From positions 8,190 to 72,189 of the forward strand of contig PKTH01000003.1 of the NCBI GenBank assembly GCA_002869265.1: a DNA stretch of 64,000 nucleotides. The letters run 5' to 3'. Both the position numbers and the translations under genes were made by a program. This stretch comes from Candidatus Parcubacteria bacterium. Lineage in GTDB: Bacteria > Patescibacteriota > Patescibacteriia > Patescibacteriales > BM507. Below the pieces are notes generated by a model, which was not told where the DNA came from, did no database searches, and saw only the letters and a list, made by a program, of their open reading frames with translations. Shown here piece after piece: positions 26,669-48,986 of the stretch; the first letter of the stretch is position 1; every line of letters starts with the position of its first letter.

Positions 26669-26740
26669 CAGCAAAAAGTCCACTTTCTGTGGTCTTTTTT
26701 TGTTTGAGTGATTTATAGCTAAAGCACTTTTAACAATGCA

Positions 26741-26765: not shown

Positions 26766-26864
26766 TTTTAGTCTAATTTTAAATTAATTCATTTTTAATA
26801 TAAAATATGTTATTATTTAAGTATAGAAGGAGGAATAGATAAATTTTAAATTAACAAGAATTAT

Positions 26865-28265
26865 ATGAAAAAGTTCCATGCTTATCTAATAATTTTCATT
26901 TTTGTTTTCCTTCCTTTCTCACCACTCGCAGCAAGCGGAGGACAAATTGATTTTAGGTCAACCCAAATGGGGACTAGTGTCCGCAATACTAGCGGTTGGG
27001 TTTATGATATAGTAGGGGAGCGGAGTAATTTTAGCACGGGTGATGACTTCCATGTATTAACAAGGGTCTACAATATTAGAAGCGTTGACCATTTTCAAAT
27101 AAAACAAGTAATCACATCTTCAAATACAAATGAAACACTTTATTCTCCAGTTTATCGCCCTTACGGAGCATATTGGGCAGAAACATACTCTTGGGTAAAC
27201 TTTGGTAAACTAAATTCTGGATCATATACCCTAAGAACCTACTTAAGTACGGACAATAGTTATTATAAAGAAGTTTCAAGTAAAAGCTTTTCAGTTGGAT
27301 CCACTTATAACAATAATTATAATTACGACCATGATTACAATTATAATTATGACTACAACTATAATTACAACAACAACTATTCACCAAACTATAGCTACCA
27401 ATGGATCAGAACTGGTTTAGGGGTAAACACATCAAATGACTCAAAAAATGTAACTGACCCAAGAACTAGTTTTAGAACCACTGACAATATTCGTACTCTC
27501 ATCAAACTAACAAAGATCAGAGATGTTCAGAGTTTTAGGGTGAAACAAGAAGTTTACAACTCAAGTAATAATAGAGTTCGAAGTAGCGAATCAAACACAT
27601 ATTACCCCAATAATAGATATTGGGAATATTCATTTATTGACAACAATCTAGGAAAACTATCGGAAGGTGACTACACTATAAGGACTTTTGTTAAAGTAAA
27701 TAATGGTTCATATAGACAGGTCAGCACAACCAATATCGATGTTTATAACTATAGGTACAATCAATACTATTCTCCTCGATATGACTATAGCTGGACCCAT
27801 TCTGATAACTACCTAAGACATGATGGTGGTTATGTTTATTCTCTAGACAATCCGAAAACAAGCTTTAGAACAAACGAAGATGTTGTTGTTCTTACTAAGC
27901 TTTCAAATATTAGAGATGTAAATACTCTTCAGATCAAGCACGAATTATTTAAAAACGGAAGCACTAGATACAAAACTCTAACAAGCCCAATTAGAAACCC
28001 AAATGGAGATGACTGGCAGTATAATTACAACTATTCAAACTTTGGAAGAGTGCCAGCGGGAAACCACAAAATAAAAGTCTATCTAAAGATAAACAACGCC
28101 ACCTGGAAACTTCTAGACACCATTTCCATAACAGTCAGAGACTATAATAATTATTCAAACAATTACTATAATGACCCTTATTACCACTATGATTGGACCA
28201 AAACAGGAACAGAGATTAGCGCTACAATGAATGCATACTATAACTACGCCTATTATAACTACTAA
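26865..28265 (+). CDS. Secreted protein with three ~115-aa repeated domains joined by Asn/Tyr-rich linkers
   Basis: Signal peptide. Repeats share SF(R/S)T.D....L.K...IR.V...(I/V)K.E..., G.Y.(I/L)R.(F/Y). Linkers such as YNNNYNYDHDYNYNYDYNYNYNNNY. Confidence 0.6.
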   Translation: MKKFHAYLIIFIFVFLPFSPLAASGGQIDFRSTQMGTSVRNTSGWVYDIVGERSNFSTGDDFHVLTRVYNIRSVDHFQIKQVITSSNTNETLYSPVYRPYGAYWAETYSWVNFGKLNSGSYTLRTYLSTDNSYYKEVSSKSFSVGSTYNNNYNYDHDYNYNYDYNYNYNNNYSPNYSYQWIRTGLGVNTSNDSKNVTDPRTSFRTTDNIRTLIKLTKIRDVQSFRVKQEVYNSSNNRVRSSESNTYYPNNRYWEYSFIDNNLGKLSEGDYTIRTFVKVNNGSYRQVSTTNIDVYNYRYNQYYSPRYDYSWTHSDNYLRHDGGYVYSLDNPKTSFRTNEDVVVLTKLSNIRDVNTLQIKHELFKNGSTRYKTLTSPIRNPNGDDWQYNYNYSNFGRVPAGNHKIKVYLKINNATWKLLDTISITVRDYNNYSNNYYNDPYYHYDWTKTGTEISATMNAYYNYAYYNY

Positions 28266-28277
28266 TTCTTCCAATAA

Positions 28278-28307
28278 GAAAAGCCCGTCATTTTGGCGGG
28301 CTTTTTT
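28278..28307. terminator. Bidirectional terminator
   Basis: AGCCCGTC-ATTTT-GGCGGGCT flanked by A-run and T-run. Confidence 0.8.
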
Positions 28308-28309
28308 GT

Positions 28310-28756
28310 TTAGGGAAAATAATCATTAATTAGTGCTTTTTTAATATTATCCATCTCTCTGTCAGGTTCTATATGATTTCTTGTTTTTCCAGGACTACTA
28401 ATCATAATTATCCTTGCAGTTCGATATTCATCGCCATCAGGGAAGGGGGTTTTATATCCAACTTCAATTTTAACAAAAGATCTGTTGTTCTCTTGATAAG
28501 CATCATTTAGGTCATAACCAGACTCTGCAAGGAATCTTTGGAGCCTCTGGCACTCCATTATCGATTCGATATTATTGCCAGTTTCAAAGAAACTACATTC
28601 TAGTCTAACTATTGAGTCCTTACCAAAATACTCAGTTCCAAAAGTGTGGGTTTTGGTTTGAGGAACTTGACTATACCAAGAGTCAAAAGCAAAAACATTG
28701 CTTGTAGCATAAGTTACTAAAACAACGAACAGGCCAACACCTAAAATGTTTTTCAT
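28310..28756 (-). CDS. Hypothetical secreted protein
   Basis: AAGGAG SD; signal peptide MKNILGVGLFVVLVTYATSNVFA. Confidence 0.5.
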   Translation of the reverse strand: MKNILGVGLFVVLVTYATSNVFAFDSWYSQVPQTKTHTFGTEYFGKDSIVRLECSFFETGNNIESIMECQRLQRFLAESGYDLNDAYQENNRSFVKIEVGYKTPFPDGDEYRTARIIMISSPGKTRNHIEPDREMDNIKKALINDYFP

Positions 28757-28848
28757 GACTATCTCCTTTAATTATCGGTTGATAAAATGAACAAAGAAAG
28801 ATTCTTTTTAGCATATATATTTAATTCTGTCAAATACCTTCCTGTCTA

Positions 28849-28877
28849 TTGACTTTCGTTTTTTGTTCGTATATAAT
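28849..28877 (+). promoter_or_regulatory. Candidate lexA promoter
   Basis: TTGACT, 17-nt spacer, TATAAT. CTGTCA and CTGTCT half-site-like hexamers lie just upstream at 28827 and 28842. Confidence 0.5.
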
Positions 28878-28904
28878 ATTAGTATAAATATTTACTCTAA
28901 TTAT

Positions 28905-29513
28905 ATGGGGGACAACTTAACAAAAAGACAGCGCCAAATTCTTGATTTTATCAATGAATTTAGCGAAAAAAATGGCTATTCACCAAGTTATCGTGAAATT
29001 GGTGAACATTTCAATCTTTCAAGTACAGCCACTATTCATGCTCATGTTTCTGCTCTTGAGAAAAAAGGCTTAGTCAAACGTTCTCACAACGAAGCTCGCT
29101 CTATTGAGCTCGTGAACACGACTATAGACTGGCCCCAGGCCGTAGAATTGCCCCTAGCAGGGCTTATCACCGCCGGAGAACCAATTGAGGCCGTAGAGAC
29201 TCACGATACTATAGCAGTCCCTGCAGACCTTGTAACGGACAATGTAAATTCATATGTCTTAAAGGTTCAGGGTGAGTCTATGATAGATGAAGGTATCCTG
29301 AGCGGGGACTATGTAATAATCGAGAGAAACCCATCCCCAAAAAACGGAGACATAGTTGTAGCTCTCCTGGATAATGCCTTCGCTACTCTTAAAAAGTTTT
29401 TTCGCGAAAAAGACTTTATTCGTCTCCAACCAGCCAACTCTAGCATGGAACCAATTTTTGTAAAAGACTTGGCTATTCAGGGAGTAGTTAAAGGCGTCAT
29501 TAGGAAGTTTTAA
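28905..29513 (+). CDS. lexA: LexA repressor (S24 peptidase)
   Basis: N-terminal winged HTH LTKRQRQILDFI..GYSPSYREI; cleavage region; GESMIDEGILSGDYVIIE; Lys in ATLKKF. Start set at MGDNLTKRQ. Confidence 0.88.
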   Translation: MGDNLTKRQRQILDFINEFSEKNGYSPSYREIGEHFNLSSTATIHAHVSALEKKGLVKRSHNEARSIELVNTTIDWPQAVELPLAGLITAGEPIEAVETHDTIAVPADLVTDNVNSYVLKVQGESMIDEGILSGDYVIIERNPSPKNGDIVVALLDNAFATLKKFFREKDFIRLQPANSSMEPIFVKDLAIQGVVKGVIRKF

Positions 29514-29606
29514 TCTTTATTTACAAAATAGATGAGCTATGTTAACTTTCTATATTATTGATCATTTATAAACGGCACTTTTAAAAACAATAAATAGGAG
29601 ATTGTA

Positions 29607-29750
29607 GTGTTTAAAGATATCCATCCAAGCTATTTAGCAATTGCGTTGGTCCTTGTTCTTATACTTTTTCATGATTTTGTGATTCCTTTTGCAAAATATC
29701 TGATTGAGCTGAGAAGGTCAATTTTAAAAAAAGAAAACAACAAAAACTAA
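29607..29750 (+). CDS. Candidate 47-aa single-TM peptide (not in the ORF track)
   Basis: GTG start 6 nt after TAGGAG. Translation VFKDIHPSYLAIALVLVLILFHDFVIPFAKYLIELRRSILKKENNKN, translated by hand. Confidence 0.35.
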   Translation: MFKDIHPSYLAIALVLVLILFHDFVIPFAKYLIELRRSILKKENNKN

Positions 29751-29905
29751 TCTCAAAACATGGAGGAATCAATGAATATTACCAACAATGCCTCATTTCC
29801 AATCCAATAATCGCTTTTTGTAGTTCTTCCGATGTCGGGCATGGTGATGATCACAGAATCGAACCTGGTTAGACAGAAAATGTCATTGGTCCATATATTG
29901 GAGAA

Positions 29906-30115
29906 ATGGATGGCGGATCATGCTACATCGTAGTAGAGGGAGAAATAACTTGTCACGAATCAGATGATGATGATTACGCATTTCAGGTGCTGAAAAGCAG
30001 ATCCCTTTCTCTCGGATGCAATGGCCCCAAGAGCATCTCAGTTCGTCATTTCGAAGATGATGCAGAAGAGCATGTTCTCGAATGGAGACGGAGAACAAAA
30101 ACAACCCAACACTAA
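29906..30115 (+). CDS. Hypothetical acidic 69-aa protein
   Basis: GGAGA SD; strong terminator starts 12 nt after the stop. An antisense ORF (29883..30125) competes with it. Confidence 0.35.
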   Translation: MDGGSCYIVVEGEITCHESDDDDYAFQVLKSRSLSLGCNGPKSISVRHFEDDAEEHVLEWRRRTKTTQH

Positions 30116-30126
30116 AAAACACCATA

Positions 30127-30152
30127 ACCGCAAGTTAACTTGCGGTTTTTTT
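30127..30152 (+). terminator. Rho-independent terminator
   Basis: CCGCAAG-TTAA-CTTGCGG followed by T7. Confidence 0.85.
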
Positions 30153-30153
30153 A

Positions 30154-30183
30154 TAAAAAAATCCCTAGAGCTTTACTCTAGGG
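30154..30183 (-). terminator. Rho-independent terminator for the minus-strand coiled-coil gene
   Basis: CCCTAGAG-CTTTA-CTCTAGGG with an A7 run on the plus strand (T7 on minus). Confidence 0.85.
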
Positions 30184-30207
30184 AGTGGGCCGGAATGAAT
30201 TCATTCC

Positions 30208-30693
30208 TTATTTTTTTTCGTTGTTTTTGGCAATACCACCAACCTTTTTAATGCATTTTTCCAAGTCCGTTTTTAGACGTTTTTCAGGGATGGAAGCAAT
30301 AATCTGCAAAATCATATAGAACGAATCTTGCAGAGAATCAATTTGATTCATACGTTCACTTGTGCCTTGTGCTTGAGCCTGCAGATTCTTCACCATTTCA
30401 TGATGTTTTTCATGAAACTTTTGATCCCGTTTATTCAGGCGATCAATTTCCAGTTCATTAGCACTCAGAACTCTCTTAAATTGTTCAATTTTTTCTTCGA
30501 GTTCCTTGACTTCTGTTTCTCCCTCCTTCATCTTTCTAAAGAGAGCAAAAGCCAAACCGCGCAGGATTGCAACTTCATGCTTTATGCCCTCCATAGTACT
30601 ATCCTTAAGCATGACTTGAAGTTCGTCAGGTAAATCGTCCGTATTACCAACACCACGGCGCGCACCAAGCATTTCGCGAAGCAGTTCTTCCAT
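30208..30693 (-). CDS. Hypothetical coiled-coil protein
   Basis: GAGGAGG SD 6 nt before MEELLREML. Heptad-rich E/K/L middle segment. Own promoter, operator-like palindrome and terminator. Confidence 0.5.
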   Translation of the reverse strand: MEELLREMLGARRGVGNTDDLPDELQVMLKDSTMEGIKHEVAILRGLAFALFRKMKEGETEVKELEEKIEQFKRVLSANELEIDRLNKRDQKFHEKHHEMVKNLQAQAQGTSERMNQIDSLQDSFYMILQIIASIPEKRLKTDLEKCIKKVGGIAKNNEKK

Positions 30694-30719
30694 TATAACC
30701 TCCTCGTTTGAGATAATTA

Positions 30720-30737
30720 CTGTCATTAATTTGACAG
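30720..30737. promoter_or_regulatory. Operator-like inverted repeat CTGTCA-TTAATT-TGACAG at the predicted transcription start of the coiled-coil gene
   Basis: Perfect 6-bp arms read directly. Lies 7 nt downstream of the minus-strand -10 element. Confidence 0.5.
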
Positions 30738-30744
30738 ATATTTT

Positions 30745-30772
30745 ATCATAACATAAAAAATATTTTTGTCAA
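30745..30772 (-). promoter_or_regulatory. Promoter of the coiled-coil gene
   Basis: Minus strand reads TTGACA, 16-nt spacer, TGTTATGAT (extended -10). Confidence 0.55.
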
Positions 30773-30846
30773 TAATAAAAAAGCATTATTTAGTTAAAAT
30801 TAATATCTCATTAATCTAAATTAAATATAATTAAAACATGCACTAT

Positions 30847-30875
30847 TTGTAAATTTTCTTTAAAGTTGGTATAAT
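30847..30875 (+). promoter_or_regulatory. Promoter of the response-regulator/ABC operon; leaderless mRNA predicted
   Basis: TTGTAA, 17-nt spacer, TGGTATAAT. Only 6 nt separate the -10 element from the ATG, with no SD. Confidence 0.5.
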
Positions 30876-30881
30876 TCAAGT

Positions 30882-31283
30882 ATGAAAAAAAGATTTTTTA
30901 TCGTTGAAGACGATGTTAATATTCTTTATGCTGTCCAAGCCCAGTTAAGAGTAAAAGGATTTGATGCGTTTGTAGATAACGGAGCCCATGGGATTGAAAC
31001 CCTTATCGACAGCATGGAAACGGAGCAGCCAGATTTTATCATACTAGATTTGATACTTCCTCATATCGATGGTTTTGAATTGCTTTCATCTATTAAAGCA
31101 AATAATATGATTTCTTCTATCCCAGTTTTTGTTTTCACAAATCTCAGCGATGAAGACACCAAAACAATAGTGGAAAAAATGGGTGTCGATTATCACTTTA
31201 TAAAATCAGAAATGAATGTTGAAGAATTTGTTAGAAAGGTTGTTAAAATAATTCATAATAAATCAAAACTACAAATGCTATGA
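30882..31283 (+). CDS. Stand-alone response regulator receiver domain (CheY-like)
   Basis: EDD, phospho-acceptor in IILDLILP, T in VFTNL, K in FIKSE. No output domain. Confidence 0.88.
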   Translation: MKKRFFIVEDDVNILYAVQAQLRVKGFDAFVDNGAHGIETLIDSMETEQPDFIILDLILPHIDGFELLSSIKANNMISSIPVFVFTNLSDEDTKTIVEKMGVDYHFIKSEMNVEEFVRKVVKIIHNKSKLQML

Positions 31284-33193
31284 AAAAAATATCTGTAAAA
31301 AAAGCATTGATCATCCTTTCTGTTTTGGCAGTGATAGCTATTATTATTATTTCTGCTATGGCAAGAGGCAGCAAAGATTTAAATGAATATACTACAATAA
31401 CATTAGAAAGGGGAGACCTTATCCAGACAGTTTCTGAAACAGGAATAATAAAAACAAGCGACTCCTTTGATTTAAGTTTTGAGCAGGGTGGGAAAATATC
31501 AGTTATTCAAACCGAAGTCGGTCAAGAGGTGGAAAAAGATCAAGTAATCGCCGAGCTTGATCACAGTGCCCTTGATATTCGCTTAGCACAAACTAGGGCT
31601 AGCCTTGATATAGCAAACGCAAATCTAACTAAACTTCGCACAGGAGCCACTTCTCAAGAAATTGCAATTTATGAAGCTAGTTACAACCGTGCAAAATCAG
31701 CATATGATTCTAGTCTTACTGAACTAGAAACCTATCAAAAATCCTTAGACGAAAGTATCGCCCAGGCCACAAAAACATTATATGATCTGGAAAATACTGG
31801 AGCTGGTACACCTACAGTTTATGAACAAGCTCTAGATGCAGCTGAAACAAACCTTGAAAACACCGAAACAACCTATCAACAAGGAATTGATAATTCAATA
31901 ACTAGTTCTCTCAACATAGTTGAAACTCAAACGTCTGCAATTAACAATTCTCTTGATCAGATCAATTCTATTATCAATGAAGATGATTATGAGGATTATT
32001 TATCTGTAAAAAATAAAACATACTTAAGTAATGCTAGAAAATCTTACGATGAGGCCATAGTTCTTCTAGATCAAACAAACCTAAATACCCCAAAAGTTAA
32101 AGCAGCCCCCCATAGAGATAATGTAAAAAACTTACTTCAGGAAACATTAGACACCTTAAATAAAACTTATCTTTCTCTCAATAACTCTTTTTCCGCTCTT
32201 GAGAATTCAGTCACTGGTTCTGCTTTTTCAAAAACAACTCTTGATGGATTAAAAACAATTATAAATACTCAGATTGGAATAATCAGCGCAAGCATCACAA
32301 GCACTCAATCAGCTATCCAGTCTCTCGATAGCGCCATCCTAACATATGACACCCGTGTTGATACTGCTAATGATACATATACACAAGCTAAAACAAATCT
32401 AGACAATGCTATAACAACTGCCAAGAACAATCTAACAAACGTAAAAAACAATGGAGACCAACAATTAGCTAGCCTCGAGGGAAGAGTGGAATCAGCAAAC
32501 CAGTCCTTGTTTGTAGCTCAGGCAGAGCTAAATAGAGTAAAATCTCCCGCCAGAGCTGAAGACATAAGTCTTTATCAAGCGCAATACAGACAAGCCGAGG
32601 CCGAACTCAACTCAGTTACAAATCAAATAGAAAAGACAAAGCTCAAGGCACCTATAGACGGAGTTGTTTCAAAAATCAACTTTGAAGTTGGTGAACAATA
32701 CAATGTTGGCAGAGTGGTTGCTACTGTAATCTCAGAAACTGAGTATAGAATAGATGTGGATATTTCAGAGTCTGATATACCAAAAGTAAAGATTGGAGAT
32801 GAGGTTTCAATAACTCTAGACGCCCTATCGGAAGACGTGAAATTCATCGGGTCAGTTAGCTTTATTGAGCCAGCTGAAACTGTTATCCAAGATGTTATTT
32901 ACTATAAAGTTGAAATAACTTTTGACTCGGCTAACGGGAACCTCAAACTAGTTAAACCAGGAATGACAGCGAACGTGGAAATAACCACCAATGAAAAAAT
33001 AAGTATTTTAGCAATCCCAGGTAGAGCAATTATAGATCGAAATGGCGATGGAAAATTTGTTAAAACTTATAACAATAACGTTATTGAAGAAAAAAAAGTT
33101 AAAATAGGAATAATCGGAGACGGTGGAATGGTTGAGATAATATCTGGTCTGGAAGAAGGAGATGAAGTTGTTACATTCACCAAAGAAAAATAA
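31280..33193 (+). CDS. HlyD/MacA-family periplasmic adaptor with a greatly expanded alpha-helical hairpin (637 aa)
   Basis: N-terminal TM helix. Barrel-sandwich motif VEKDQVIAELD..; about 340 aa of helical Q/N/T/L-rich sequence; C-terminal beta-barrel LKAPIDGVV..GMTANVEI. ATGA overlap with the response regulator. Confidence 0.8.
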   Translation: MKKISVKKALIILSVLAVIAIIIISAMARGSKDLNEYTTITLERGDLIQTVSETGIIKTSDSFDLSFEQGGKISVIQTEVGQEVEKDQVIAELDHSALDIRLAQTRASLDIANANLTKLRTGATSQEIAIYEASYNRAKSAYDSSLTELETYQKSLDESIAQATKTLYDLENTGAGTPTVYEQALDAAETNLENTETTYQQGIDNSITSSLNIVETQTSAINNSLDQINSIINEDDYEDYLSVKNKTYLSNARKSYDEAIVLLDQTNLNTPKVKAAPHRDNVKNLLQETLDTLNKTYLSLNNSFSALENSVTGSAFSKTTLDGLKTIINTQIGIISASITSTQSAIQSLDSAILTYDTRVDTANDTYTQAKTNLDNAITTAKNNLTNVKNNGDQQLASLEGRVESANQSLFVAQAELNRVKSPARAEDISLYQAQYRQAEAELNSVTNQIEKTKLKAPIDGVVSKINFEVGEQYNVGRVVATVISETEYRIDVDISESDIPKVKIGDEVSITLDALSEDVKFIGSVSFIEPAETVIQDVIYYKVEITFDSANGNLKLVKPGMTANVEITTNEKISILAIPGRAIIDRNGDGKFVKTYNNNVIEEKKVKIGIIGDGGMVEIISGLEEGDEVVTFTKEK

Positions 33194-39348: not shown

Positions 39349-40596
39349 ATGAAAAAGATTTTATTTCTACTTGCAATAATTATTGTTAGTGGTGCTATTA
39401 TTAGGACCTCAGATTTTGCATACCTTGCTGAAGAGGAGAGCTACTCAACACCAGAATCAGCTAAGATAAACAATGAAATAAAAACAATCAATGAAGAAAT
39501 AGAAGATAGAAAGAATCGGATGCAAAAGATACAAGACAAACAAAAAAGCTACACTCAAGCTATTGCCCAAAAACAGAAAGACAAATCCACTCTTAATAGC
39601 CAGCTAGCTATACTTGATAATAGACTTGCCAAGGCTGAACTTGATATAGAATCAGTTGAAATTGATATTGAAAAAGTCTCTCTGGAGATTTCAAAAACAA
39701 ATCTTTCCATTCTGGATAAAGAAGCTGAGATAGAAGTAGAAAAAAGTAAAATTGAAAAAGTTATCCAGCTGCTTTATAAAGAGGGGAATATAGACACACT
39801 CCAAATATTACTTTTGAACAACTCCTTATCAGATTTTTTAACCCAAGTTAAATACCTTGAGAATGTTAACCAAGCAGTTAAAGAAAGTCTCGACAATTTA
39901 GTTTCCTTGAAAGAAAATTTAGAAGAAGAGAAGATCCAACTGGGAAAAAAGAATGACAATCTTGAATTACTTAAGAGTGACCTTATAGATAAAAAAGAGC
40001 TACTCAAAGCTGAACTTGAATCCAAAGAAACCCTACTAACTCAAGTAAATTCATCTGAAGCTGAATATCAAAAATTACTTGCTCAATCCAAAGAAGAACA
40101 ACAAGACGCTGCAGCAGAGATTGCCAGTATGGAAAAGCTTATCAGGGCTAAATTAGCAGCTCTTCAAGGGAAAAAACTAGAGTTCAACGAAAATGGTTTT
40201 GTTTGGCCGGTCAAAAAAAATGTCATAACTGCTTATTTTCATGATCCAGACTACCCATATAAAAATATTTTTGAACATCCCGCTATTGATATTCGGGCAG
40301 GGCAGGGGAGTACTCTAAAAGCAGCCGCTTCTGGCTATGTGGCCAGAGCAAAAGACGCTGGAATGGGATACAGTTATATCATGATAATACACGGAGATGG
40401 GCTCTCTACGGTATATGGACACGTTTCCAAGCTTTATGTCCAAGATGACGAATACGTCGTTCAGGGGCAAACTATAGGCCTCTCAGGAGGTATGCCTGGA
40501 ACACCAGGAGCTGGTAGACTGACAACTGGACCTCATCTTCATTTTGAGGTTAGAAAAGACGGAATCCCTGTAAACCCCCTAAACTATTTACAATAA
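39349..40596 (+). CDS. M23 family metallopeptidase with a long N-terminal coiled coil (EnvC-like)
   Basis: HPAIDI, HGDGLSTVYGH, GPHLHFEV. About 250 aa of coiled coil. Confidence 0.85.
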   Translation: MKKILFLLAIIIVSGAIIRTSDFAYLAEEESYSTPESAKINNEIKTINEEIEDRKNRMQKIQDKQKSYTQAIAQKQKDKSTLNSQLAILDNRLAKAELDIESVEIDIEKVSLEISKTNLSILDKEAEIEVEKSKIEKVIQLLYKEGNIDTLQILLLNNSLSDFLTQVKYLENVNQAVKESLDNLVSLKENLEEEKIQLGKKNDNLELLKSDLIDKKELLKAELESKETLLTQVNSSEAEYQKLLAQSKEEQQDAAAEIASMEKLIRAKLAALQGKKLEFNENGFVWPVKKNVITAYFHDPDYPYKNIFEHPAIDIRAGQGSTLKAAASGYVARAKDAGMGYSYIMIIHGDGLSTVYGHVSKLYVQDDEYVVQGQTIGLSGGMPGTPGAGRLTTGPHLHFEVRKDGIPVNPLNYLQ

Positions 40597-41574: not shown

Positions 41575-42531
41575 CTAATTTTTTAAGTTTTTCCCACTGT
41601 GAAATTTTTTATGGACATCTCTTAGCTGCTTATTAGTAACGTGCGTATAGATCTGTGTTGTAGCTATATTTTGATGTCCTAAGAATTCTTGTACTAAACG
41701 TAGGTCTACTCCTTGAGCAAGCAAATCAGTAGCGTAAGAGTGTCTAAGGGTGTGGGGGGTTGTCACTATGGGGAGGCCAGCTATTTTAACATATTTTTTG
41801 ACTATTTCTTCAACACTTTTAGTGGTAAGTCTACGTGGATTTGAGGTTTTTTCAATACCTGGTTTGTAATTTATAAAAAGTGCTGGATCCATATCTTGTC
41901 TTTTATTTATATATGCCCGCAACCACATAGTGGCTCTTTCTGAAAAATAAATAGCTCGAACTTTTGATCCTTTTCCGATGACAGAAACCTCCATGTCTTT
42001 AGTTTTTTCTGTTATTCTAAACTGCTCAGAGTCAAGTGCAACTAACTCTGCCACACGTAACCCAGTAGAAAATAATACCTCTAAAATCACTCTATCCCGC
42101 AGTCCAATTCTTGTTTCTATATTAGGCGCCAATAATAATTTTTCAACCTGATCCAAACTCAAAAATTTTATTTCTTTATCTGCTTTATCTTTAGCAAGTT
42201 TTATTTTGTCTGGGGGGAGAGAGGGGATATCTCTTTCAATGAAATACTCTAAAAAACTCCTCAGGGCTATAAGGTAATAATTTTGAGTAGATTTTTTTAA
42301 GGTTTTTTTTGTCCTGGGGTCAGTATGTCTTGAGAGGAAAACTCTGTATTTCAACACATGCTTATCAGTTAATTTTTCCGGTGATAATTTATCTAATCCT
42401 GAATCCTTTAACCATAAAAAAAATTTATTTAAAAATCGGGAATAATTTTCTTGCGTTTTAGAAGAAAGTCCTCTTTCAATTTCTAAAAAATCAAGATAGT
42501 CTGTAAGATGTTTTGATATTGCTTTTGCCAT
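41575..42531 (-). CDS. Tyrosine recombinase, XerC/XerD family
   Basis: Catalytic region HTLRHSYATDLLAQG..LGHQNIATTQIYTHV. N-terminal SAM-like domain FLEIERGLSSKTQENY. Confidence 0.88.
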   Translation of the reverse strand: MAKAISKHLTDYLDFLEIERGLSSKTQENYSRFLNKFFLWLKDSGLDKLSPEKLTDKHVLKYRVFLSRHTDPRTKKTLKKSTQNYYLIALRSFLEYFIERDIPSLPPDKIKLAKDKADKEIKFLSLDQVEKLLLAPNIETRIGLRDRVILEVLFSTGLRVAELVALDSEQFRITEKTKDMEVSVIGKGSKVRAIYFSERATMWLRAYINKRQDMDPALFINYKPGIEKTSNPRRLTTKSVEEIVKKYVKIAGLPIVTTPHTLRHSYATDLLAQGVDLRLVQEFLGHQNIATTQIYTHVTNKQLRDVHKKFHSGKNLKN

Positions 42532-42569
42532 ACAAACATTATAGCACTTATATTATGCGAAGTATATTG

Positions 42570-42598
42570 TTGACATAAAGTTCTATATAGAATATATT
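42570..42598 (+). promoter_or_regulatory. Candidate promoter
   Basis: TTGACA, 17-nt spacer, TATATT, upstream of 42654..42908. Confidence 0.4.
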
Positions 42599-42653
42599 TA
42601 TAACTGTTGCTCATTTTACAAATCCCAAAATACTCATACGGAGAAAAAGAAAA

Positions 42654-42908
42654 ATGAAAATGTTTATTATCCTAATAGTAATATTTTCTATTACAAACAT
42701 CTGTTATGCAGAAGAACAAGATAATGATTATATCTTAATCGATCATAACAGCGCTCAAGCAAAAAAAGAAAATAAAGAACTATTTAGTCTCAAAGTCAAA
42801 GAAACAGAAAACATCACTTATTCTCTTTTTGTTGGTTGTAATGACAATCAGGAATTTGATCTATTTAAATGGGAAAAAATTGGCGCTAAAATGATTATTA
42901 GATTCTAA
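42654..42908 (+). CDS. Hypothetical small secreted protein
   Basis: GGAGAAAAAG SD; signal peptide MKMFIILIVIFSITNICYA. Confidence 0.4.
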   Translation: MKMFIILIVIFSITNICYAEEQDNDYILIDHNSAQAKKENKELFSLKVKETENITYSLFVGCNDNQEFDLFKWEKIGAKMIIRF

Positions 42909-43314
42909 AATGCGCAAAAATACACGAGAGGACTAAAAACCCTCTTTTTTTTCTTAAAAATGCCATTTATTGACTAATATTAGCTATTTAGCTCAAAATG
43001 GCTTTCTAAGAGATTTTTCTGTCTTTTTGGTATAAATACACATAACTTTAAGCATGCTTTTATAGAAAGTACCTAGAAAGCGCGAGATAGAGCCTAGATT
43101 TAAAAGAAATATATCTATTTATTTCAATTAAATTTTTAAGTCTAAAAAAACCTTAACGAATTATGAAATAATATGGAGACACTTAAGAAGTAGGGGTTAA
43201 TGAATAAATGTATAAACCGACTTTAATAACTACTTAGATTTATGAGTTTTTATATAAAAAGGAGGGTAGAGTATTTGATTGACGGGAAGGCACCTTATTT
43301 ATAGTATTGATAGT

Positions 43315-43342
43315 ACTTCGCATAATGTAGATTAATCAACGT
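43315..43342. other. Candidate dif (Xer recombination) site ACTTCGCATAA-TGTAGA-TTAATCAACGT
   Basis: Arms are 7/11 self-complementary. 18/28 identity to each of the E. coli and B. subtilis dif sequences as I recall them. Lies in the convergent gap ~0.8 kb from xer. Confidence 0.4.
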
Positions 43343-43602
43343 ACTATATGTATTTAAAAGGCTTTTTAAGGCCTTTATAATACTTTCTAAAAATATTAAT
43401 ATTATGCGTCTGTTATTAACATCCCAAATATATTTATATCTGGATTGAACATCAACAGGAACTTTAAAAACAAAAGAAAGAATCCAATAACGACTAAGCA
43501 AAAAACAATAATGGCTAATACGAATAAAGTTTTAAATAACCCCTCCATAGTTTTGGCTAATATTAGCAAATAATGCTATAATTTACCTAATATTAGATTA
43601 AT

Positions 43603-44484
43603 TTATCTATAGTATATCATGTCTCCGAAACGAAGATCTATATACGTTTTTGAAAATAACTCATCTCTTAATTTCTCATTTCTCAAGAGAATAAGTTTCT
43701 GAATTTGTTGATCAATACCCTCCTCGACATTAAAGTATACATCAGGACCATCCATTATTTTCATAGTTAAGGTGTTGTCATTCTCATTTCCTACTGTAAA
43801 CTTTTCTACATTAAAAATATTTGTATCTCTTAACTCTTGATAAAGTTTAATAGCATATTCAAAATGCTTTTCTTTACCCGCGACCCTTTGATCAAGAATT
43901 AATAATCTGCCCTTGTTTTCAATAAGTGGAAAAATCTGTTTAAGCTCTTCGGGTAAGACTTCTATTATAATCTCTCCATTTGTTGTTATGTAATAATATC
44001 TTGAATCTTCAAACCAGACCAAGGCATAAGAAACTTCTTTCAAGTCTAGCTCCAGTTTATTGGGGAATTTTTTATTAACGACAATTGACTCAAAGGCTAA
44101 ATCTTCTTTTAGTTTATCATAAAGAGCATTTTCTTTAAACAAAAAGAAGTTATTACCGGGGAAAAATACATACTTTGACCGTAATTGCTCACGGGCAATC
44201 CTTTCTATCTGTTCCTCCCCTATTCCTCCTATATCATTTACACGGTCAAAGTTAATGCTTATGTCATATATTAAAAAATACTTTGAATAAATAAAAAACC
44301 AAAATAACAATGCAAATAAAGCAAAAAAGAACAAAACACTAAACTTGGTTTTCCATGAAAAATGGCTAAGAAGAGGTTTAGAACTTTTTTTATTAGCTTC
44401 ATTAAAATAGGGGTTGGTATATGATTTATGACTTACATATTGCCTACGACTATTTGTTCTCAGTTTTTTTTTATTTTTAAACAT
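43603..44484 (-). CDS. ftsQ: Cell division protein FtsQ/DivIB-like (TM helix plus POTRA)
   Basis: Single TM helix, POTRA-like I.I.F....I, downstream of ddl. Confidence 0.65.
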   Translation of the reverse strand: MFKNKKKLRTNSRRQYVSHKSYTNPYFNEANKKSSKPLLSHFSWKTKFSVLFFFALFALLFWFFIYSKYFLIYDISINFDRVNDIGGIGEEQIERIAREQLRSKYVFFPGNNFFLFKENALYDKLKEDLAFESIVVNKKFPNKLELDLKEVSYALVWFEDSRYYYITTNGEIIIEVLPEELKQIFPLIENKGRLLILDQRVAGKEKHFEYAIKLYQELRDTNIFNVEKFTVGNENDNTLTMKIMDGPDVYFNVEEGIDQQIQKLILLRNEKLRDELFSKTYIDLRFGDMIYYR

Positions 44485-46877: not shown

Positions 46878-48986
46878 CTATAAGTTTAGTTTATCTGAAA
46901 TATTTTGTAAGGATTTTAAGCTAATTTCAAAAAATTCATCCAATGACAAACCTGTCTCTTCTATTTCTTTTATCAGTTCCCTATCGCAATTTGCGGCAAA
47001 GGATTTTGTTTTAAATTTCTTTTTCAGTGAGCTCAGTTTAACGCTAGCTAGCTTTTTATCTGGTTGCATTTTTGCTGAAGCAACGATTAGCCCAGTCAAA
47101 GTCTCAGCGGCAACCAATGCGTATTGAATTTTTGTTTCTCTTTTTCTATTAGGATTTTCTCCGCATTCTTTATTACCAAAAGTATGTGATTGAATCGTTT
47201 CAATTAAATAATCTGAGGCTCCTTCTCCTTTTAAAATTTCAGCTGCTCGTACGGTATGGTCTATAACCTTATTGCTTGTCTCATCCCAATCAATATCATG
47301 CAAGAGACCGACTATCCCCCACTGTTCTTCATCTTCCCCAAAATACTTTGCCAAATCGCGCATAATAGACTCTGTCTCAATGGAATGCAATTTTGTATTA
47401 TCGTCTTTTACATATTTTTCAAAAATAGCTTTTGCTTTTTTATAATCAATACCTAATTCCTGCCCCTCGCTTTCATTCATACCCCTTGGTGCAGAAACAG
47501 TCTGTAATCTTTTCATAGTTGGGAACATAACCATATCTCTAATGTTTTCTTCACCTTCCAGTAAGGCAAAAAATCTATCGAGGCCCATCCCCCAACCTGC
47601 CATAGGTGGCATACCGTATTCCATAGATTCAACAAAATCATGGTCGAAAGGCATAGCTTCTTCGTCCCCCTCTATCACAAGCCTCTCCTGAGCCTCAAAA
47701 CGCTCTCTTTGGTCGATTGGATCATTTAACTCGTTATATGCCTTAATCATTTCCCAAGTGTTTATTACAAGTTGAAAAGTGGCAACTTTTTCCGGCTCTT
47801 CTTCTTTGGTTTTGGCTAAAGCCATTAATTCCTTGGGGTAATCTGTAACAAATACTGGATTAATCAGTTTATTTCTTACAGTTTTCTTGTATAATTCATC
47901 AATCTTTGCAGGCCAGCCAATCTTATCTTTTACATTTACCTTATTCTCCAAGGATTTTTCCATAACAAATTTTTCTACTTTTTCTTCTGTGTCCAAGTCC
48001 TTAACTCCTACACCTAAATTTTCCTTAAGAAGCTCATCAAAAGTTTTTCTTGGGAAAGGTGGCTGAAAATTTATTTCATTATCACCATATTTAACAACAA
48101 AATTTTTATATACTTTTTCTACTACTTCTTTGATTAAGTTTTCAGTAAAATCCATTAAAAAATTATAATCAACATAAGGCCAATAGAATTCAAACATGGT
48201 AAACTCCTGCAAATGAGCAGGACCCATCCCTTCATTTCTAAAACATTTACCTATCTCAAATATTCTTTCAAAGCCACCAGCAACTGTTCTTTTCAAAAAC
48301 ATCTCTGGAGCGATTCTTAAATAAAAATCCTGATCAAGACCATGGTAATAAGTCGTGAATGGTTTGGCATAGGTCCCCCCGTAGACATTTTGCAAGATAG
48401 GTGTTTCAACTTCTACAAACTTGTTAGCCCACATATATTCTCTGATAGCACGAGTAGCTTCAAACCTCTTTTTGAATCTTTCATAAGCCCTACGGTCAGA
48501 AATCATTTCTAATTCCCTAAATCTTTGTTTCTTATCATCGTCTTGAAGTCCGTGCCATTTTTCCGGAAGTGGTCTAATTGCTTTACTTAGAACCCTCCAC
48601 TCACTAACCATGATAGATTTTTCATTTTTATGTGTTAAGAAACAAGAACCCCCTACTTCAACAAAGTCGCCCATGTCAATTAACTTAACAAAGTCTTTAT
48701 AAGAGTCGTCCCCTATTTCCTTTTTTGAAAAAGCTATTTGAATACTTGCACTTGAATCCTCAAGGTTGGCAAATGTTAAATTTCCATGAGTTCTCTTACT
48801 CTTAAGCCTCCCCGACAAGACAAAGGTTATAGATTTCACGAGGTTTTCGTCAAAATCATCTAAAACTTCACTAATATGGTTAGTTCTGTTGTTTTTAGAA
48901 GTATATGGATTTATCCCTTTTTCACGTATTGTATTTAATTTAATCTTCCGTTCTTCAAATTCACTAATTTTTTCATTTTGGCTCAT
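46878..48986 (-). CDS. lysS: Lysyl-tRNA synthetase (class II) fused to a C-terminal HD hydrolase domain
   Basis: Class II core (FRNEG, GGxGxGxDR-like GWGMGLDRF) in residues 1 to ~500. C-terminal ~200 aa with WGIVGLLHDIDWD resemble the stand-alone COG2316-type HD hydrolase (from memory). Confidence 0.9.
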   Translation of the reverse strand: MSQNEKISEFEERKIKLNTIREKGINPYTSKNNRTNHISEVLDDFDENLVKSITFVLSGRLKSKRTHGNLTFANLEDSSASIQIAFSKKEIGDDSYKDFVKLIDMGDFVEVGGSCFLTHKNEKSIMVSEWRVLSKAIRPLPEKWHGLQDDDKKQRFRELEMISDRRAYERFKKRFEATRAIREYMWANKFVEVETPILQNVYGGTYAKPFTTYYHGLDQDFYLRIAPEMFLKRTVAGGFERIFEIGKCFRNEGMGPAHLQEFTMFEFYWPYVDYNFLMDFTENLIKEVVEKVYKNFVVKYGDNEINFQPPFPRKTFDELLKENLGVGVKDLDTEEKVEKFVMEKSLENKVNVKDKIGWPAKIDELYKKTVRNKLINPVFVTDYPKELMALAKTKEEEPEKVATFQLVINTWEMIKAYNELNDPIDQRERFEAQERLVIEGDEEAMPFDHDFVESMEYGMPPMAGWGMGLDRFFALLEGEENIRDMVMFPTMKRLQTVSAPRGMNESEGQELGIDYKKAKAIFEKYVKDDNTKLHSIETESIMRDLAKYFGEDEEQWGIVGLLHDIDWDETSNKVIDHTVRAAEILKGEGASDYLIETIQSHTFGNKECGENPNRKRETKIQYALVAAETLTGLIVASAKMQPDKKLASVKLSSLKKKFKTKSFAANCDRELIKEIEETGLSLDEFFEISLKSLQNISDKLNL

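What the first reader, a model, noticed from the sequence alone, without database searches (positions are those of the whole stretch)
43315..43342. dif-like 28-mer inside the convergent gap
Seen in sequence: ACTTCGCATAA-TGTAGA-TTAATCAACGT. The 11-bp arms are 7/11 complementary to each other, and TAGTAC/GTACTA extends the dyad (43311-43346). Compared from memory with E. coli dif (GGTGCGCATAATGTATATTATGTTAAAT), I count 18/28 identities, including the contiguous CGCATAATGTA. Compared with B. subtilis dif (ACTTCCTAGAATATATATTATGTAAACT), I count 18/28, including ACTTC at the outer end. The location fits the terminus inference.
Basis: partly seen in the sequence, partly recalled or inferred. Interest (0 to 1): 0.6.

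Follow-up and report, generated by a model that had tools for sequence, protein, structure and literature searches.

The report
Chromosome dimer-resolution (dif) site, Patescibacteria
The 28-base motif is very likely the real site where this ultra-small bacterium (Patescibacteria, Falkowbacteria-like) separates fused daughter chromosomes: it lies next to its recombinase gene at the replication terminus and is conserved in about 170 related genomes, a familiar kind of system I could not find described for this group.

Summary
ACTTCGCATAA-TGTAGA-TTAATCAACGT (43315-43342) is unique in the window. A matrix built from relatives scores it 46.8 bits against 1.5 for the next best. It lies at the GC-skew turning point, 783 bp upstream of a Xer-type tyrosine recombinase gene (41575-42531, minus strand).

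The window comes from a Falkowbacteria-like Patescibacteria genome. In 76 of 80 related genomes, and at least 95 of 120 metagenome contigs, the same site sits upstream of the xer orthologue in the same orientation. Positions 1-21, 25 and 28 are nearly invariant, while the flanks are not conserved. The order ftsQ-dif-xer-M23 peptidase is conserved.

A polar heptamer, AGGGRAG, points at the site from both sides (752 toward, 33 away). It flips exactly at the site, is densest next to it, and keeps this polarity inside genes transcribed the other way. This is KOPS-like behaviour.

The right arm lacks the canonical XerD arm. It is variable and often mirrors the left arm. Together with the xer linkage, this favours a single-recombinase system, which is inferred and not proven.

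Side findings are a half-site in the xer promoter and phage contigs that carry look-alike sites.

Verdict: a real feature and a new member of a known kind. No description for this phylum was found in the library searched.

The parts
43315..43342 (+). The dif-like recombination site. Left arm 43315-43325 ACTTCGCATAA (invariant in relatives); central region 43326-43331 TGTAGA; right arm 43332-43342 TTAATCAACGT (inner TTAA, A25 and T28 conserved; positions 22-24 free).
   Evidence: It scores 46.8 bits on a weight matrix built from relatives. It is conserved in 76/80 genome loci, and at least 120 metagenome contigs carry its conserved 21-base core.
43311..43346 (.). Extended dyad (TAGT|site|ACTA). 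Only the two bases next to the site (-1/29 and -2/30) show symmetric covariation in relatives.
   Evidence: Complementarity at -1/29 is 62/75 against 52.4 expected; at -2/30 it is 52/75 against 43.2 expected.
41575..42531 (-). The xer gene: a 318-aa tyrosine recombinase transcribed away from the site. The conserved arm of the site faces it.
   Evidence: It scores 230.8 bits on the XerD model (cut-off 329.6) and 224.5 bits on the XerC model (cut-off 335.15). The closest solved structure is E. coli XerD (3.4e-38). The catalytic R, K, HxxR, H and Y all align.
42552..42563 (-). A second, exact copy of the conserved arm (ACTTCGCATAAT). It is inverted relative to the site and abuts the xer promoter. 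It is a candidate Xer operator, or a relic of a second site.
   Evidence: The same half-site is present in 16/67 loci where dif is more than 130 bp from xer, against 1/102 where dif is adjacent.
42538..42546 (-). TGCTATAAT, an extended -10-like box ending 6 nt before the xer ATG (42531). This suggests a leaderless xer mRNA.
   Evidence: TAnAAT ends 4-10 nt before the ATG in 83/177 orthologues, and only 1/177 has an SD-like motif.
42654..42908 (+). Variable cargo ORF (84 aa) with a hydrophobic, signal-peptide-like N-terminus, followed by a terminator-like hairpin at 42927-42945. It occupies the variable slot between xer and dif.
   Evidence: (no homologue in 80 related loci).
42212..42228 (+). 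G-rich polar cluster GGGGGGAGAGAGGGGAT, which contains the highly skewed GGGGAGAG. It lies on the antisense strand of xer and points toward the site.
   Evidence: Inside xer genes of relatives, AGGGRAG runs 137 toward dif and 3 away.
40304..40310 (+). The nearest strict AGGGRAG motif to the left of the site. There are 12 on the + strand and 2 on the - strand between 1 and 43314.
44215..44221 (-). The nearest strict AGGGRAG motif to the right of the site. There are 7 on the - strand and none on the + strand between 43343 and 64000.
43603..44484 (-). ftsQ/divIB-like cell-division gene, the conserved neighbour on the variable-arm side of the site.
   Evidence: Found on that side in 54 of 58 loci with enough flank.
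39349..40596 (+). M23 peptidase (EnvC/NlpD-like), the conserved neighbour beyond xer.
   Evidence: Found in 58 of 61 loci with enough flank.

Best explanation
The 28-mer is the chromosomal dif site of this Patescibacteria (Falkowbacteria-like) genome. It is the place near the replication terminus where the Xer tyrosine recombinase, encoded 783 bp away, makes one crossover to turn a chromosome dimer into two monomers.

Proposed mechanism:
1. One Xer monomer binds the invariant arm ACTTCGCATAA tightly.
2. A second monomer, most likely of the same protein, binds the weaker and partly mirrored right arm (TTAA...A..T) cooperatively.
3. Two such sites pair, and the strands are cut and exchanged at the borders of the 6-bp centre TGTAGA.
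4. The invariant asymmetries (A at both positions 8 and 21, and the non-palindromic centre) fix the alignment of the sites and the order of strand exchange.
5. The polar AGGGRAG motifs converge on the site. This suggests that a directional DNA translocase of the FtsK type is steered toward it, so recombination is confined to the terminus at cell division.

What is shown: the site is present and unique in the DNA examined, it is conserved, it is linked to xer, it sits at the terminus, the motif polarity converges on it, and the recombinase has intact catalytic residues.

What is inferred: binding, cleavage, use of a single recombinase, and involvement of FtsK.
For: 1. Conservation restricted to the site. 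In 75 sequences with all-different flanks, whose Xer proteins are only 64-74% identical to the window's, positions 1-21, 25 and 28 are nearly invariant. The surrounding DNA has about 0 bits of information.

2. Linkage to xer. The site lies upstream of xer, with the conserved arm facing the gene, in 76/80 genome loci. Two of the four misses have less than 150 bp of upstream DNA. It is also linked in 92 of 120 metagenome contigs, plus 3 where site and gene overlap; most of the remainder have too little flank to tell. The median distance is about 90 bp.

3. Fixed chromosomal position. The order ftsQ-dif-xer-M23 peptidase is kept in 54/58 and 58/61 loci.

4. Terminus location. In the window, cumulative G-C plateaus from 40.5 to 43.5 kb and then falls. 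In 52/54 relatives the skew is higher on the left of the site than on the right (means +0.10 and -0.057).

5. Converging polar motif. AGGGRAG runs 752 toward the site and 33 away across 196 loci.
- It flips exactly at the site: 126:2 in the last 500 bp on one side, and 5:151 in the first 1.5 kb on the other.
- It still points toward dif in genes transcribed away from it: 137:3 inside xer and 40:4 in other such genes.
- Control purine heptamers follow transcription instead.
- In the window the count is 19 toward and 2 away, against 10.2 +/- 2.7 expected on the toward strand under a Markov-1 model.

6. Architecture. The 11-6-11 layout and positions 1-20 match canonical dif sites (PMC2731167).

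7. The recombinase is Xer-like, and its catalytic residues align to those of E. coli XerD.

8. Evidence for a single recombinase.
- About a quarter of sites have a right arm, TTAAGCGAAGT, that mirrors the left arm at 10/11 positions. One site (L060) has perfectly mirrored arms.
- The invariant right-arm bases are a subset of the mirrored left arm.
- The outer flanks covary symmetrically.
- No second Xer homologue occurs in the window or in the 205 loci.
- Linkage of dif to xer is described as a possible hallmark of single-recombinase systems (PMC5357621).
- Unequal arm affinity with cooperative binding is documented for XerH and XerS (PMC5241119; PMC5357621).

9. Phage contigs carry near-palindromic versions of the site, mostly without a recombinase of their own in the DNA held. 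This implies that a host enzyme acts on the sequence.
Against: - No biochemical or genetic test was possible.
- Uniqueness could be checked only over 64 kb of this genome and about 6-13 kb around the site in relatives, not over a whole chromosome.
- A second Xer encoded elsewhere cannot be excluded. The conserved A25 with variable positions 23-24 is also the pattern of canonical XerD arms (PMC2731167).
- The XerD residues said to contact FtsK (RQ...QQ) read RD...KK here (PMC5357621). No ftsK gene was seen among the window proteins examined. FtsK coupling therefore rests only on the polar motif.
- G-rich words in general are skewed in these genomes. Over-representation of AGGGRAG within the window alone is modest.
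- The related loci are phylogenetically non-independent, so the counts overstate the number of independent events.
Confidence: 0.82

Rival explanations
1. It is a dif site, but of the classical two-recombinase type. The linked gene encodes the XerC-like partner that binds ACTTCGCATAA. A second, XerD-like recombinase encoded elsewhere binds the diverged right arm.
For: Positions 1-20 are identical to XerCD-type dif sites of beta-proteobacteria. The right arm keeps T18, T19, A20, A25 and T28 and is variable at 22-24, as in canonical XerD arms. Only 64 kb of this genome and about 12 kb per relative could be searched for a paralogue.
Against: - In XerCD systems the XerD arm is the better conserved one (PMC2731167). 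Here it is the variable one, and it lacks TGTTAAAT.
- About a quarter of sites have a right arm that copies the left arm, and one is perfectly symmetric.
- The protein scores equally on the XerC and XerD models and is below both cut-offs.
- Tight xer-dif linkage is reported for single-recombinase systems, not for XerCD.
Confidence: 0.25
2. The site and the adjacent recombinase belong to an integrated mobile element. The 28-mer would be an attachment-site junction or an element-borne resolution site, not the chromosome's own dif.
For: Tyrosine recombinase genes next to their target sites are typical of integrative elements. The interval between site and gene carries variable small genes. Phage contigs carry similar sites.
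Against: - The module sits between the same housekeeping genes (ftsQ and an M23 peptidase) across the family.
- It lies at the skew switch in 52/54 loci and at the convergence point of a chromosome-wide polar motif.
- There is no second site in direct repeat in any of the 205 loci.
- No tRNA gene or element genes lie nearby.
Confidence: 0.03
3. The 28-mer is only a regulatory operator. Xer or another protein binds it to control xer or ftsQ transcription, and no recombination takes place.
For: An isolated copy of the conserved arm sits on the xer promoter in the window and in 16 other loci. In most genomes the site lies within about 100 bp of the xer start.
Against: - An operator would not need a conserved 6-bp centre identical to the dif crossover region plus a second arm.
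- It would not need to stay at the terminus after being separated from xer by up to 2 kb.
- It would not be the flip point of the polar motif.
- It would not be copied by phages next to their terminase genes.
Confidence: 0.03
4. A chance resemblance to dif in AT-rich intergenic DNA.
For: The genome is AT-rich. Short dif-like words such as ATTATGTAAACT with 2 mismatches occur at or below chance frequency.
Against: The site scores 46.8 bits against 0.5 or less in shuffles. It is conserved in about 170 independent contigs with unconserved flanks.
Confidence: 0.005

Closest known systems
Canonical XerC/XerD-dif (E. coli; B. subtilis CodV/RipX-dif; beta-proteobacterial dif such as Thiobacillus ACTTCGCATAATGTATATTATGTTAAAT)
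   Same: It is a 28-bp site with an 11-6-11 layout. The left arm and centre are identical or nearly so (positions 1-20). It is non-coding and AT-rich and lies at the GC-skew switch. G-rich polar motifs converge on it. The recombinase is most similar to XerD and XerC.
   Different: The outer right arm lacks the XerD consensus and is the variable arm, not the conserved one. Only one xer gene was found, and it is tightly linked to the site. The protein falls below both the XerC and XerD model cut-offs. The XerD RQ..QQ residues are not kept.
XerS/difSL of streptococci and lactococci
   Same: A single recombinase gene sits immediately next to its site as one module. One arm is bound more strongly than the other. 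The system is FtsK/KOPS-guided, and the L. lactis KOPS is also a heptamer (PMC5357621; PMC3384302).
   Different: difSL is 31 bp with an 11-bp centre and an unrelated sequence. The window protein scores 115 bits on the XerS model against a cut-off of 267 and has 318 aa, not about 356.
XerH/difH of Helicobacter and Campylobacter
   Same: A single recombinase is linked to its site. The arms are nearly symmetric, with one higher-affinity arm that dictates the order of cleavage (PMC5241119).
   Different: The site sequence is unrelated. XerH is a much weaker match (8e-13) than XerD (3.4e-38).
XerA/dif of Archaea
   Same: One XerC/D-like recombinase acts on a 28-bp site with an 11-6-11 layout. The window protein scores 197 bits on the XerA model (cut-off 220) and matches XerA structures at 1e-26 to 8e-31.
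   Different: XerA is reported to act independently of FtsK, whereas here a KOPS-like motif converges on the site. The organism is bacterial. The score is below the model cut-off.
XerL/dif of Legionellales, and IMEX elements (LME-1, CTX-phi, VGJ-phi, TLC-phi, the gonococcal genetic island)
   Same: XerL/dif is a lineage-specific single-recombinase dif system that was recognised through mobile elements carrying dif mimics (PMC9765430). Here, phage contigs carry mimics of the site.
   Different: Integration of these phages at dif has not been observed here, and they are tailed phages, not filamentous ones. No homology to XerL was tested.
'Cand' subgroup of Xer-related tyrosine recombinases (Smyshlyaev et al. 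2021)
   Same: This is a named group of Xer-like recombinases from candidate phyla, proposed to stand in for Xer (PMC8138268).
   Different: The passages of that paper read here mention no target site, terminus location or polar motif. Whether the window protein belongs to that subgroup could not be tested with these tools.

Membership tests
dif/Xer chromosome dimer-resolution site (generic) | Two inverted ~11-bp recombinase-binding arms around a 6-8 bp central region | tested here: met
   The layout is 11-6-11. The arms are 7/11 complementary in the window and up to 11/11 in relatives.
dif/Xer chromosome dimer-resolution site (generic) | Located at the replication terminus (GC-skew switch), in non-coding DNA | tested here: met
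   The cumulative skew plateau ends at the site. In 52/54 relatives the skew is higher on the left than on the right. The site lies in an intergenic convergent gap; the overlapping 68-aa TTG ORF has no family match.
dif/Xer chromosome dimer-resolution site (generic) | One copy per chromosome | tested here: inconclusive
   The site is unique in the 64-kb window and in each of 205 related loci. No complete genome could be scanned.
dif/Xer chromosome dimer-resolution site (generic) | Conserved among related genomes while the flanks diverge | tested here: met
dif/Xer chromosome dimer-resolution site (generic) | Cognate Xer-type tyrosine recombinase with a complete catalytic set | tested here: met
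   R, K, HxxR, H and Y all align with E. coli XerD. Phage_integrase and SAM-like domains are present.
dif/Xer chromosome dimer-resolution site (generic) | Xer-dependent recombination between two sites; segregation defect when the site is deleted | not testable with these tools
   Needs in vitro or in vivo assays.
Canonical XerCD-dif | Highly conserved XerD-binding arm (TTATGTTAAAT or TTATGTAAACT) | tested here: not met
   The window arm TTAATCAACGT matches TTATGTAAACT at 6/11. The family consensus is TTAA-NNN-A-[CA]-[GC]-T, and this is the variable arm.
Canonical XerCD-dif | Two paralogous recombinases (XerC and XerD), each passing its equivalog model | tested here: inconclusive
   Only one Xer was found in the window and the loci. 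It scores 230.8 bits on XerD (cut-off 329.6) and 224.5 bits on XerC (cut-off 335.15). The rest of the genome was not available.
XerS/difSL | 31-bp site with an 11-bp centre; XerS orthologue | tested here: not met
   The site is 28 bp with a 6-bp centre. The XerS model gives 115.2 bits against a cut-off of 267.
XerH/difH | XerH orthologue and a difH-type sequence | tested here: not met
   XerH structures match at only 8e-13, against 3.4e-38 for XerD. The site sequence is unrelated to the difH arms AGTTATGAAAA and AAAAGTTTGA.
Single-recombinase Xer modules (as a class) | Recombinase gene genetically linked to its site | tested here: met
   Linked in 76/80 genome loci and at least 95/120 metagenome contigs, at a median distance of about 90 bp.
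Single-recombinase Xer modules (as a class) | Only one Xer recombinase in the genome acts on both arms | tested here: inconclusive
   Supported indirectly by mirrored arms and symmetric flank covariation. Not testable without whole genomes or biochemistry.
KOPS / architecture-imparting polar motifs | Strong strand skew that points to dif and inverts at dif | tested here: met
   AGGGRAG is 96% oriented toward the site, flips within the 500-bp bins flanking it, and is densest there. In the window the count is 19 toward and 2 away.
KOPS / architecture-imparting polar motifs | Skew not explained by transcription direction or base composition | tested here: met
   In genes transcribed away from dif, the count is 137:3 inside xer and 40:4 in other genes. 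Control purine heptamers follow transcription. Over-representation in the window is modest: 19 against 10.2 +/- 2.7 expected.
KOPS / architecture-imparting polar motifs | Recognised by the gamma domain of the organism's FtsK | not testable with these tools
   No ftsK gene was seen among the window proteins examined. Binding needs experiments.
IMEX (mobile elements that integrate using host Xer) | Element carries a dif mimic, lacks its own integrase, and is found integrated at dif between two hybrid sites | tested here: inconclusive
   Phage contigs carry mimics, and no recombinase homologue is seen in the DNA held except in L208. No integrated copy flanked by two sites was found in the 205 loci.

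The most novel reading that the evidence does not exclude
Falkowbacteria-like Patescibacteria run a previously undescribed single-recombinase Xer/dif system. One XerC/D-like protein would act on a site with one invariant arm and one degenerate, mirrored arm. It would be steered by its own KOPS-type motif (AGGGRAG). It would regulate itself through a half-site on its leaderless promoter when cargo genes separate it from dif. Tailed phages lacking integrases would exploit it by carrying dif mimics next to their terminase genes; this would make them tailed-phage IMEX elements, or phages that depend on host Xer for multimer resolution.
Probability: 0.3. Interest if true: 0.65.

Novelty: new member of a known kind. 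Interest (0 to 1): 0.5.

Why it matters
Patescibacteria (the candidate phyla radiation) are a large and almost uncultured part of bacterial diversity. Their chromosome biology is known only from gene lists.

A defined dif site, with its recombinase and a candidate translocase-guiding motif, has several practical uses:
- It marks the replication terminus in fragmentary metagenome-assembled genomes. This helps with assembly checks and with growth-rate estimates based on origin-to-terminus coverage.
- It gives a compact recombination module of about 1 kb plus 28 bp that could be tested heterologously.
- It offers a way to link phages that carry the site to Patescibacteria hosts.

If the single-recombinase reading holds, this would be a further independent case of one-recombinase dimer resolution. 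In this case the site keeps the canonical XerC arm and centre but has lost the XerD arm, which bears on how two-recombinase and one-recombinase systems interconvert.

Tried and rejected
- A canonical Firmicute or E. coli-type dif elsewhere in the window: none at up to 3 mismatches, and XerD-arm-like 12-mers occur at or below chance.
- A hairpin, cruciform or RNA element: the site region folds no better than shuffles (z = -0.44). There is no Rfam match in 40.5-44 kb at E <= 1 and no tRNA nearby.
- A second Xer paralogue: none in the window or in 205 loci. The rest of the genome could not be reached with these tools.
- An integrated element flanked by two sites: no second site of 12 bits or more in any locus.
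- The half-site as a product of simple Xer-mediated integration: rejected, because it is inverted relative to the conserved arm of dif, and integration would give direct repeats.
- Cargo genes between dif and xer forming one conserved family: they do not. They form only small families of 2-3 members.
- A published description: three full-text searches found no paper in the library that joins dif, Xer or chromosome-dimer terms with Patescibacteria/CPR terms. The supplements of Smyshlyaev et al. 2021 gave nothing usable on Falkowbacteria.
- AGGGRAG as a Shine-Dalgarno or coding-strand artefact: rejected, because most copies in the window lie inside genes and the motif keeps its polarity in oppositely transcribed genes.
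Full report
**1. The observation**

It occurs once in the window even when 3 mismatches are allowed.
- 7/11 arm complementarity;
- the TAGTAC/GTACTA extension at 43311-43346;
- 18/28 identities to E. coli dif;
- 18/28 identities to B. subtilis dif.

The two reference sequences are printed verbatim in Kono et al. 2011 (PMC3025954). Several beta-proteobacterial dif sites listed by Carnoy & Roten 2009, such as Thiobacillus ACTTCGCATAATGTATATTATGTTAAAT (PMC2731167), share positions 1-20 with this family's consensus and 21/28 with the window site.

**2. Where the window comes from, and the surroundings**

Orthologues of the neighbouring proteins come from metagenome-assembled genomes. The most informative labels are Candidatus Falkowbacteria, Parcubacteria and Patescibacteria group. 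The recombinase itself is an NCBI 'hypothetical protein' from a Candidatus Parcubacteria bacterium, on a 125.6-kb contig. GC content is about 34%.

A 318-aa tyrosine recombinase gene lies at 41575-42531 on the minus strand, 783 bp from the site.
- It scores almost equally on the XerD model (230.8 bits) and the XerC model (224.5 bits), and is below both curated cut-offs.
- Its best solved-structure match is E. coli XerD (3.4e-38). XerA follows, and XerH is far weaker at 8e-13.
- The catalytic R, K, HxxR, H and Y all align.

On the other side of the site lie ftsQ and ddl. Beyond xer lie an M23 (EnvC-like) peptidase and gltX. Cumulative G-C rises to about 40.5 kb, is flat to about 43.5 kb, and then falls steeply. 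The site is therefore at the edge of the skew turning point, and genes converge on it.

**3. Conservation**

A scan of one genome per species returned 80 loci whose Xer proteins are 64-74% identical to the window's.
- In 76 of them the same 28-mer (23-27/28 identical) lies upstream of xer, always in the same orientation, with the conserved arm facing the gene. Two of the four misses have less than 150 bp of upstream DNA.
- In 75 sequences with all-different flanks, positions 1-21, 25 and 28 are nearly invariant, positions 22-24 are free, and positions 26-27 are restricted. The flanks carry essentially no information apart from a weak symmetric AYAAT/ATTAT.
- A weight matrix built without the window's own site scores the window site 46.8 bits. 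The runner-up scores 1.5 bits, and shuffles reach 0.5 at most.
92 contigs have xer on the expected side and strand, and 3 more have site and gene overlapping. Most of the remaining contigs have too little flank to tell.
- No locus among the 205 held (1.73 Mb) has a second site of 12 bits or more.
- The order ftsQ-dif-xer-M23 peptidase is kept in 54/58 and 58/61 loci with enough sequence. The module is therefore chromosomal and not mobile.
- In 52 of 54 loci with at least 3 kb on both sides, GC skew is higher on the left of the site than on the right (means +0.10 and -0.057).

**4. A converging polar motif**

I looked for words whose strand preference inverts at the site. The heptamers AGGGAAG and AGGGGAG stood out, each about 96% oriented toward the site. 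Taken together as AGGGRAG, the motif behaves as follows.
- It runs 752 toward the site and 33 away over 196 loci.
- It flips within the 500-bp bins flanking the site: 126:2 just on the xer side, then 3:20, 1:77 and 1:54 on the other side.
- It is two to four times denser within about 1 kb of the site than further out.
- It keeps pointing at the site inside genes that are transcribed away from it: 137:3 inside xer and 40:4 in other such genes. Control purine-rich heptamers such as GAAGAAG follow the coding strand instead.
- In the window itself, 12 copies lie on the + strand and 2 on the - strand left of the site. On the right there are none on the + strand and 7 on the - strand. The 19 copies on the toward strand compare with 10.2 +/- 2.7 expected under a Markov-1 model.
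- A G-rich cluster, GGGGGGAGAGAGGGGA, lies on the antisense strand of xer at 42212-42227.

This is the behaviour reported for KOPS/SRS motifs (GGGNAGGG, GAGNAGGG and the L. lactis heptamer GAAGAAG; PMC3384302). It is independent evidence that the site is the point toward which a directional translocase is steered. That FtsK reads the motif is an inference. No ftsK gene was seen among the window proteins examined. The XerD residues said to contact FtsK (RQ..QQ) read RD..KK here.

**5. One recombinase or two**

The left arm and centre are canonical, but the right arm is not an XerD arm.
- In proteobacteria the XerD arm is the better conserved of the two (PMC2731167). Here the right arm is the variable one.
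- Its commonest form, TTAAGCGAAGT, mirrors the left arm at 10/11 positions. It occurs in 18/75 genome sites and 17/121 sites from the metagenome and viral scans.
- One genome (L060) has perfectly mirrored arms.
- The invariant right-arm bases (T18, T19, A20, A25, T28) are exactly the mirrored left-arm bases. The two bases just outside each arm covary symmetrically.
- Position 21 is always A, where the mirror of the left arm would give T. This is a fixed asymmetry beside the centre.
- No second Xer homologue lies in the window or in any locus.
- Tight gene-site linkage is described as a possible hallmark of single-recombinase systems (PMC5357621).
- A strong arm paired with a weak arm, with cooperative binding, is how XerH and XerS work.

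I therefore favour a single-recombinase system at about 0.6. A distant XerD-like partner cannot be excluded, because whole genomes were out of reach. The pattern of a conserved A25 with variable 23-24 also fits canonical XerD arms.

**6. Rivals considered**

- A mobile-element junction. Against it: conserved synteny, the terminus position, the polar motif, and the absence of a second junction.
- A purely regulatory operator. Against it: the conserved crossover-type centre, the persistence of the site at the terminus when it is separated from xer by up to 2 kb, and its presence on phages.
- A structural hairpin or an RNA element. Against it: the fold statistics (z = -0.44), no Rfam match and no tRNA nearby.
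- Chance is excluded.

**7. Comparison with what is known**

Functionally this is a Xer/dif dimer-resolution site.
- It fails the membership tests for XerS/difSL (site length, centre length and protein model) and for XerH/difH (protein and site sequence).
- It fails the defining 'conserved XerD arm' test of canonical XerCD-dif.
- In architecture it is closest to archaeal XerA/dif, which pairs one XerC/D-like enzyme with a 28-bp site. The XerA model score (197 bits) is below its cut-off (220).
- Unlike XerA, which is reported to be FtsK-independent, this site has a KOPS-like motif converging on it.

Smyshlyaev et al. 2021 name a 'Cand' subgroup of Xer-related recombinases from candidate phyla. 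The passages read here describe no site, terminus position or polar motif. Three full-text searches found no paper in the library that connects dif, Xer or chromosome dimers with Patescibacteria. This limits the claim of novelty to that library.

I rate the finding as a new member of a known kind. A variant status as a single-recombinase system remains possible.

**8. Things seen on the way**

(a) An exact copy of the conserved arm (ACTTCGCATAAT, 42552-42563, minus strand) abuts the xer -10 box.
- The box, TGCTATAAT, ends 6 nt before the ATG.
- The copy is inverted relative to the site.
- The same half-site is present in close relatives.
- Overall it occurs in 16/67 loci where dif is more than 130 bp from xer, against 1/102 where dif is adjacent.
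- Autoregulation by Xer is my preferred reading. A decayed inverted second site is the alternative. Simple integration would not produce this geometry.

(b) The dif-xer interval is a variable slot that holds diverse small genes, mostly transcribed toward dif. In the window it holds an 84-aa ORF with a signal-peptide-like start and a terminator-like hairpin.

(c) Nine IMG/VR contigs and one metagenome contig carry look-alike sites with the invariant arm and near-mirrored right arms.
- All but L211, a near-duplicate of L210, show phage-type genes such as terminase, capsid, tail, primase or exonuclease.
- In four contigs the site lies 100-320 bp upstream of the large terminase gene.
- Only one contig has a recombinase of its own in the DNA held.
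- These phages may use host Xer for integration at dif or for resolving genome multimers. No integrated copy was seen.

(d) The xer mRNAs look leaderless. TAnAAT ends 4-10 nt before the ATG in 83/177 orthologues, and an SD-like motif is present in 1/177.

**9. Verdict**

The finding is real and correctly interpreted. It would not astonish a specialist, because Xer/dif systems are nearly universal. It does give Patescibacteria a concrete terminus marker, a compact and testable recombination module, a candidate KOPS motif and a possible phage-host link. Interest is 0.5.

Noticed in passing
window 42552-42563 (-), with -10 box 42538-42546 and xer ATG at 42531: An exact inverted copy of the conserved dif arm (ACTTCGCATAAT) sits on the xer promoter. 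The same half-site occurs in 16/67 related loci where dif is more than 130 bp from xer, against 1/102 where dif is adjacent. It may be an autoregulatory operator or a decayed second site.
   Followed up: partly
window 1-64000; nearest copies 40304-40310 (+) and 44215-44221 (-); cluster 42212-42228 (+): The polar heptamer AGGGRAG (extended form RRNAGGGRAG) points at the dif site from both sides, flips exactly there and is densest within about 1 kb. It keeps this polarity in genes transcribed the opposite way. It is a candidate KOPS/FtsK-orienting motif for this lineage.
   Followed up: yes
L085 10844-10871; L123 2024-2051; L206 1803-1830; L207 2792-2819; L209 1156-1183; L213 9754-9781 (also L208, L210-L212): Phage contigs carry dif look-alikes with the invariant arm and near-mirrored right arms. 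All but L211, a near-duplicate of L210, show phage-type genes such as terminase, capsid, tail, primase or exonuclease. In four contigs the site is 100-320 bp upstream of the terminase gene. Only L208 shows a tyrosine recombinase of its own. These may be host-Xer-dependent (IMEX-like) tailed phages of Patescibacteria.
   Followed up: partly
window 42564-43314 (84-aa ORF 42654-42908 +; terminator-like hairpin 42927-42945); L081-L084 equivalents: The interval between dif and xer is a variable slot. Even relatives with Xer 81-89% identical to the window's carry different small genes there (147+168, 161 and 202 aa). Across the family these ORFs form only families of 2-3 members and are mostly transcribed toward dif.
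   Followed up: partly
xer start regions of L001-L205 and window 42529-42546: The xer genes appear to be leaderless. A TAnAAT box ends 4-10 nt before the ATG in 83/177 orthologues, and a Shine-Dalgarno-like motif is present in only 1/177.
   Followed up: partly
L127 5101-5128, L128 798-825, L200 400-427: Some metagenome hits share positions 1-21 but have right arms TTAAGTTAAAT or TTAAGTCAAAT, one or two changes from the canonical XerD arm. No xer was found in the 3.5-3.9 kb of flank on the expected side in L127 and L128; L200 has only about 400 bp there. They are probably classical XerCD dif sites of other lineages.
   Followed up: no
L151 6218-6245; L173 7789-7816: These are chromosomal-looking contigs. 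L151 carries riboflavin genes and MetRS; L173 carries an arginase and an AIPR abortive-infection protein. The site is present, but no xer was found in the 2.9 kb (L151) and 7.8 kb (L173) of flank on the expected side. Linkage is therefore not universal.
   Followed up: no
window 46878-48986 (-): A lysyl-tRNA synthetase with a C-terminal HD/HDIG phosphohydrolase domain (702 aa). The same fusion is seen in the close relatives L081 and L082.
   Followed up: no
window 24000-32000: GC skew reverses locally inside the otherwise positive left arm. This stretch contains dnaB on the minus strand (25001-26389) and the window's only tRNA (tRNA-Lys, 26596-26669). It may be a small inversion or a block of lagging-strand genes.
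   Followed up: no
window 9975-11678 (+): An [FeFe]-hydrogenase large-subunit-type protein (567 aa, with Fe_hyd_lg_C plus ferredoxin-like domains) in this small genome.
   Followed up: no
L020 5961-5997: In one relative the site ends only about 6 nt before the position aligned to the xer start. The only nearby in-frame ATG lies inside the conserved arm (TT-ATG-CGAAGT), so the gene may start within dif.
   Followed up: no
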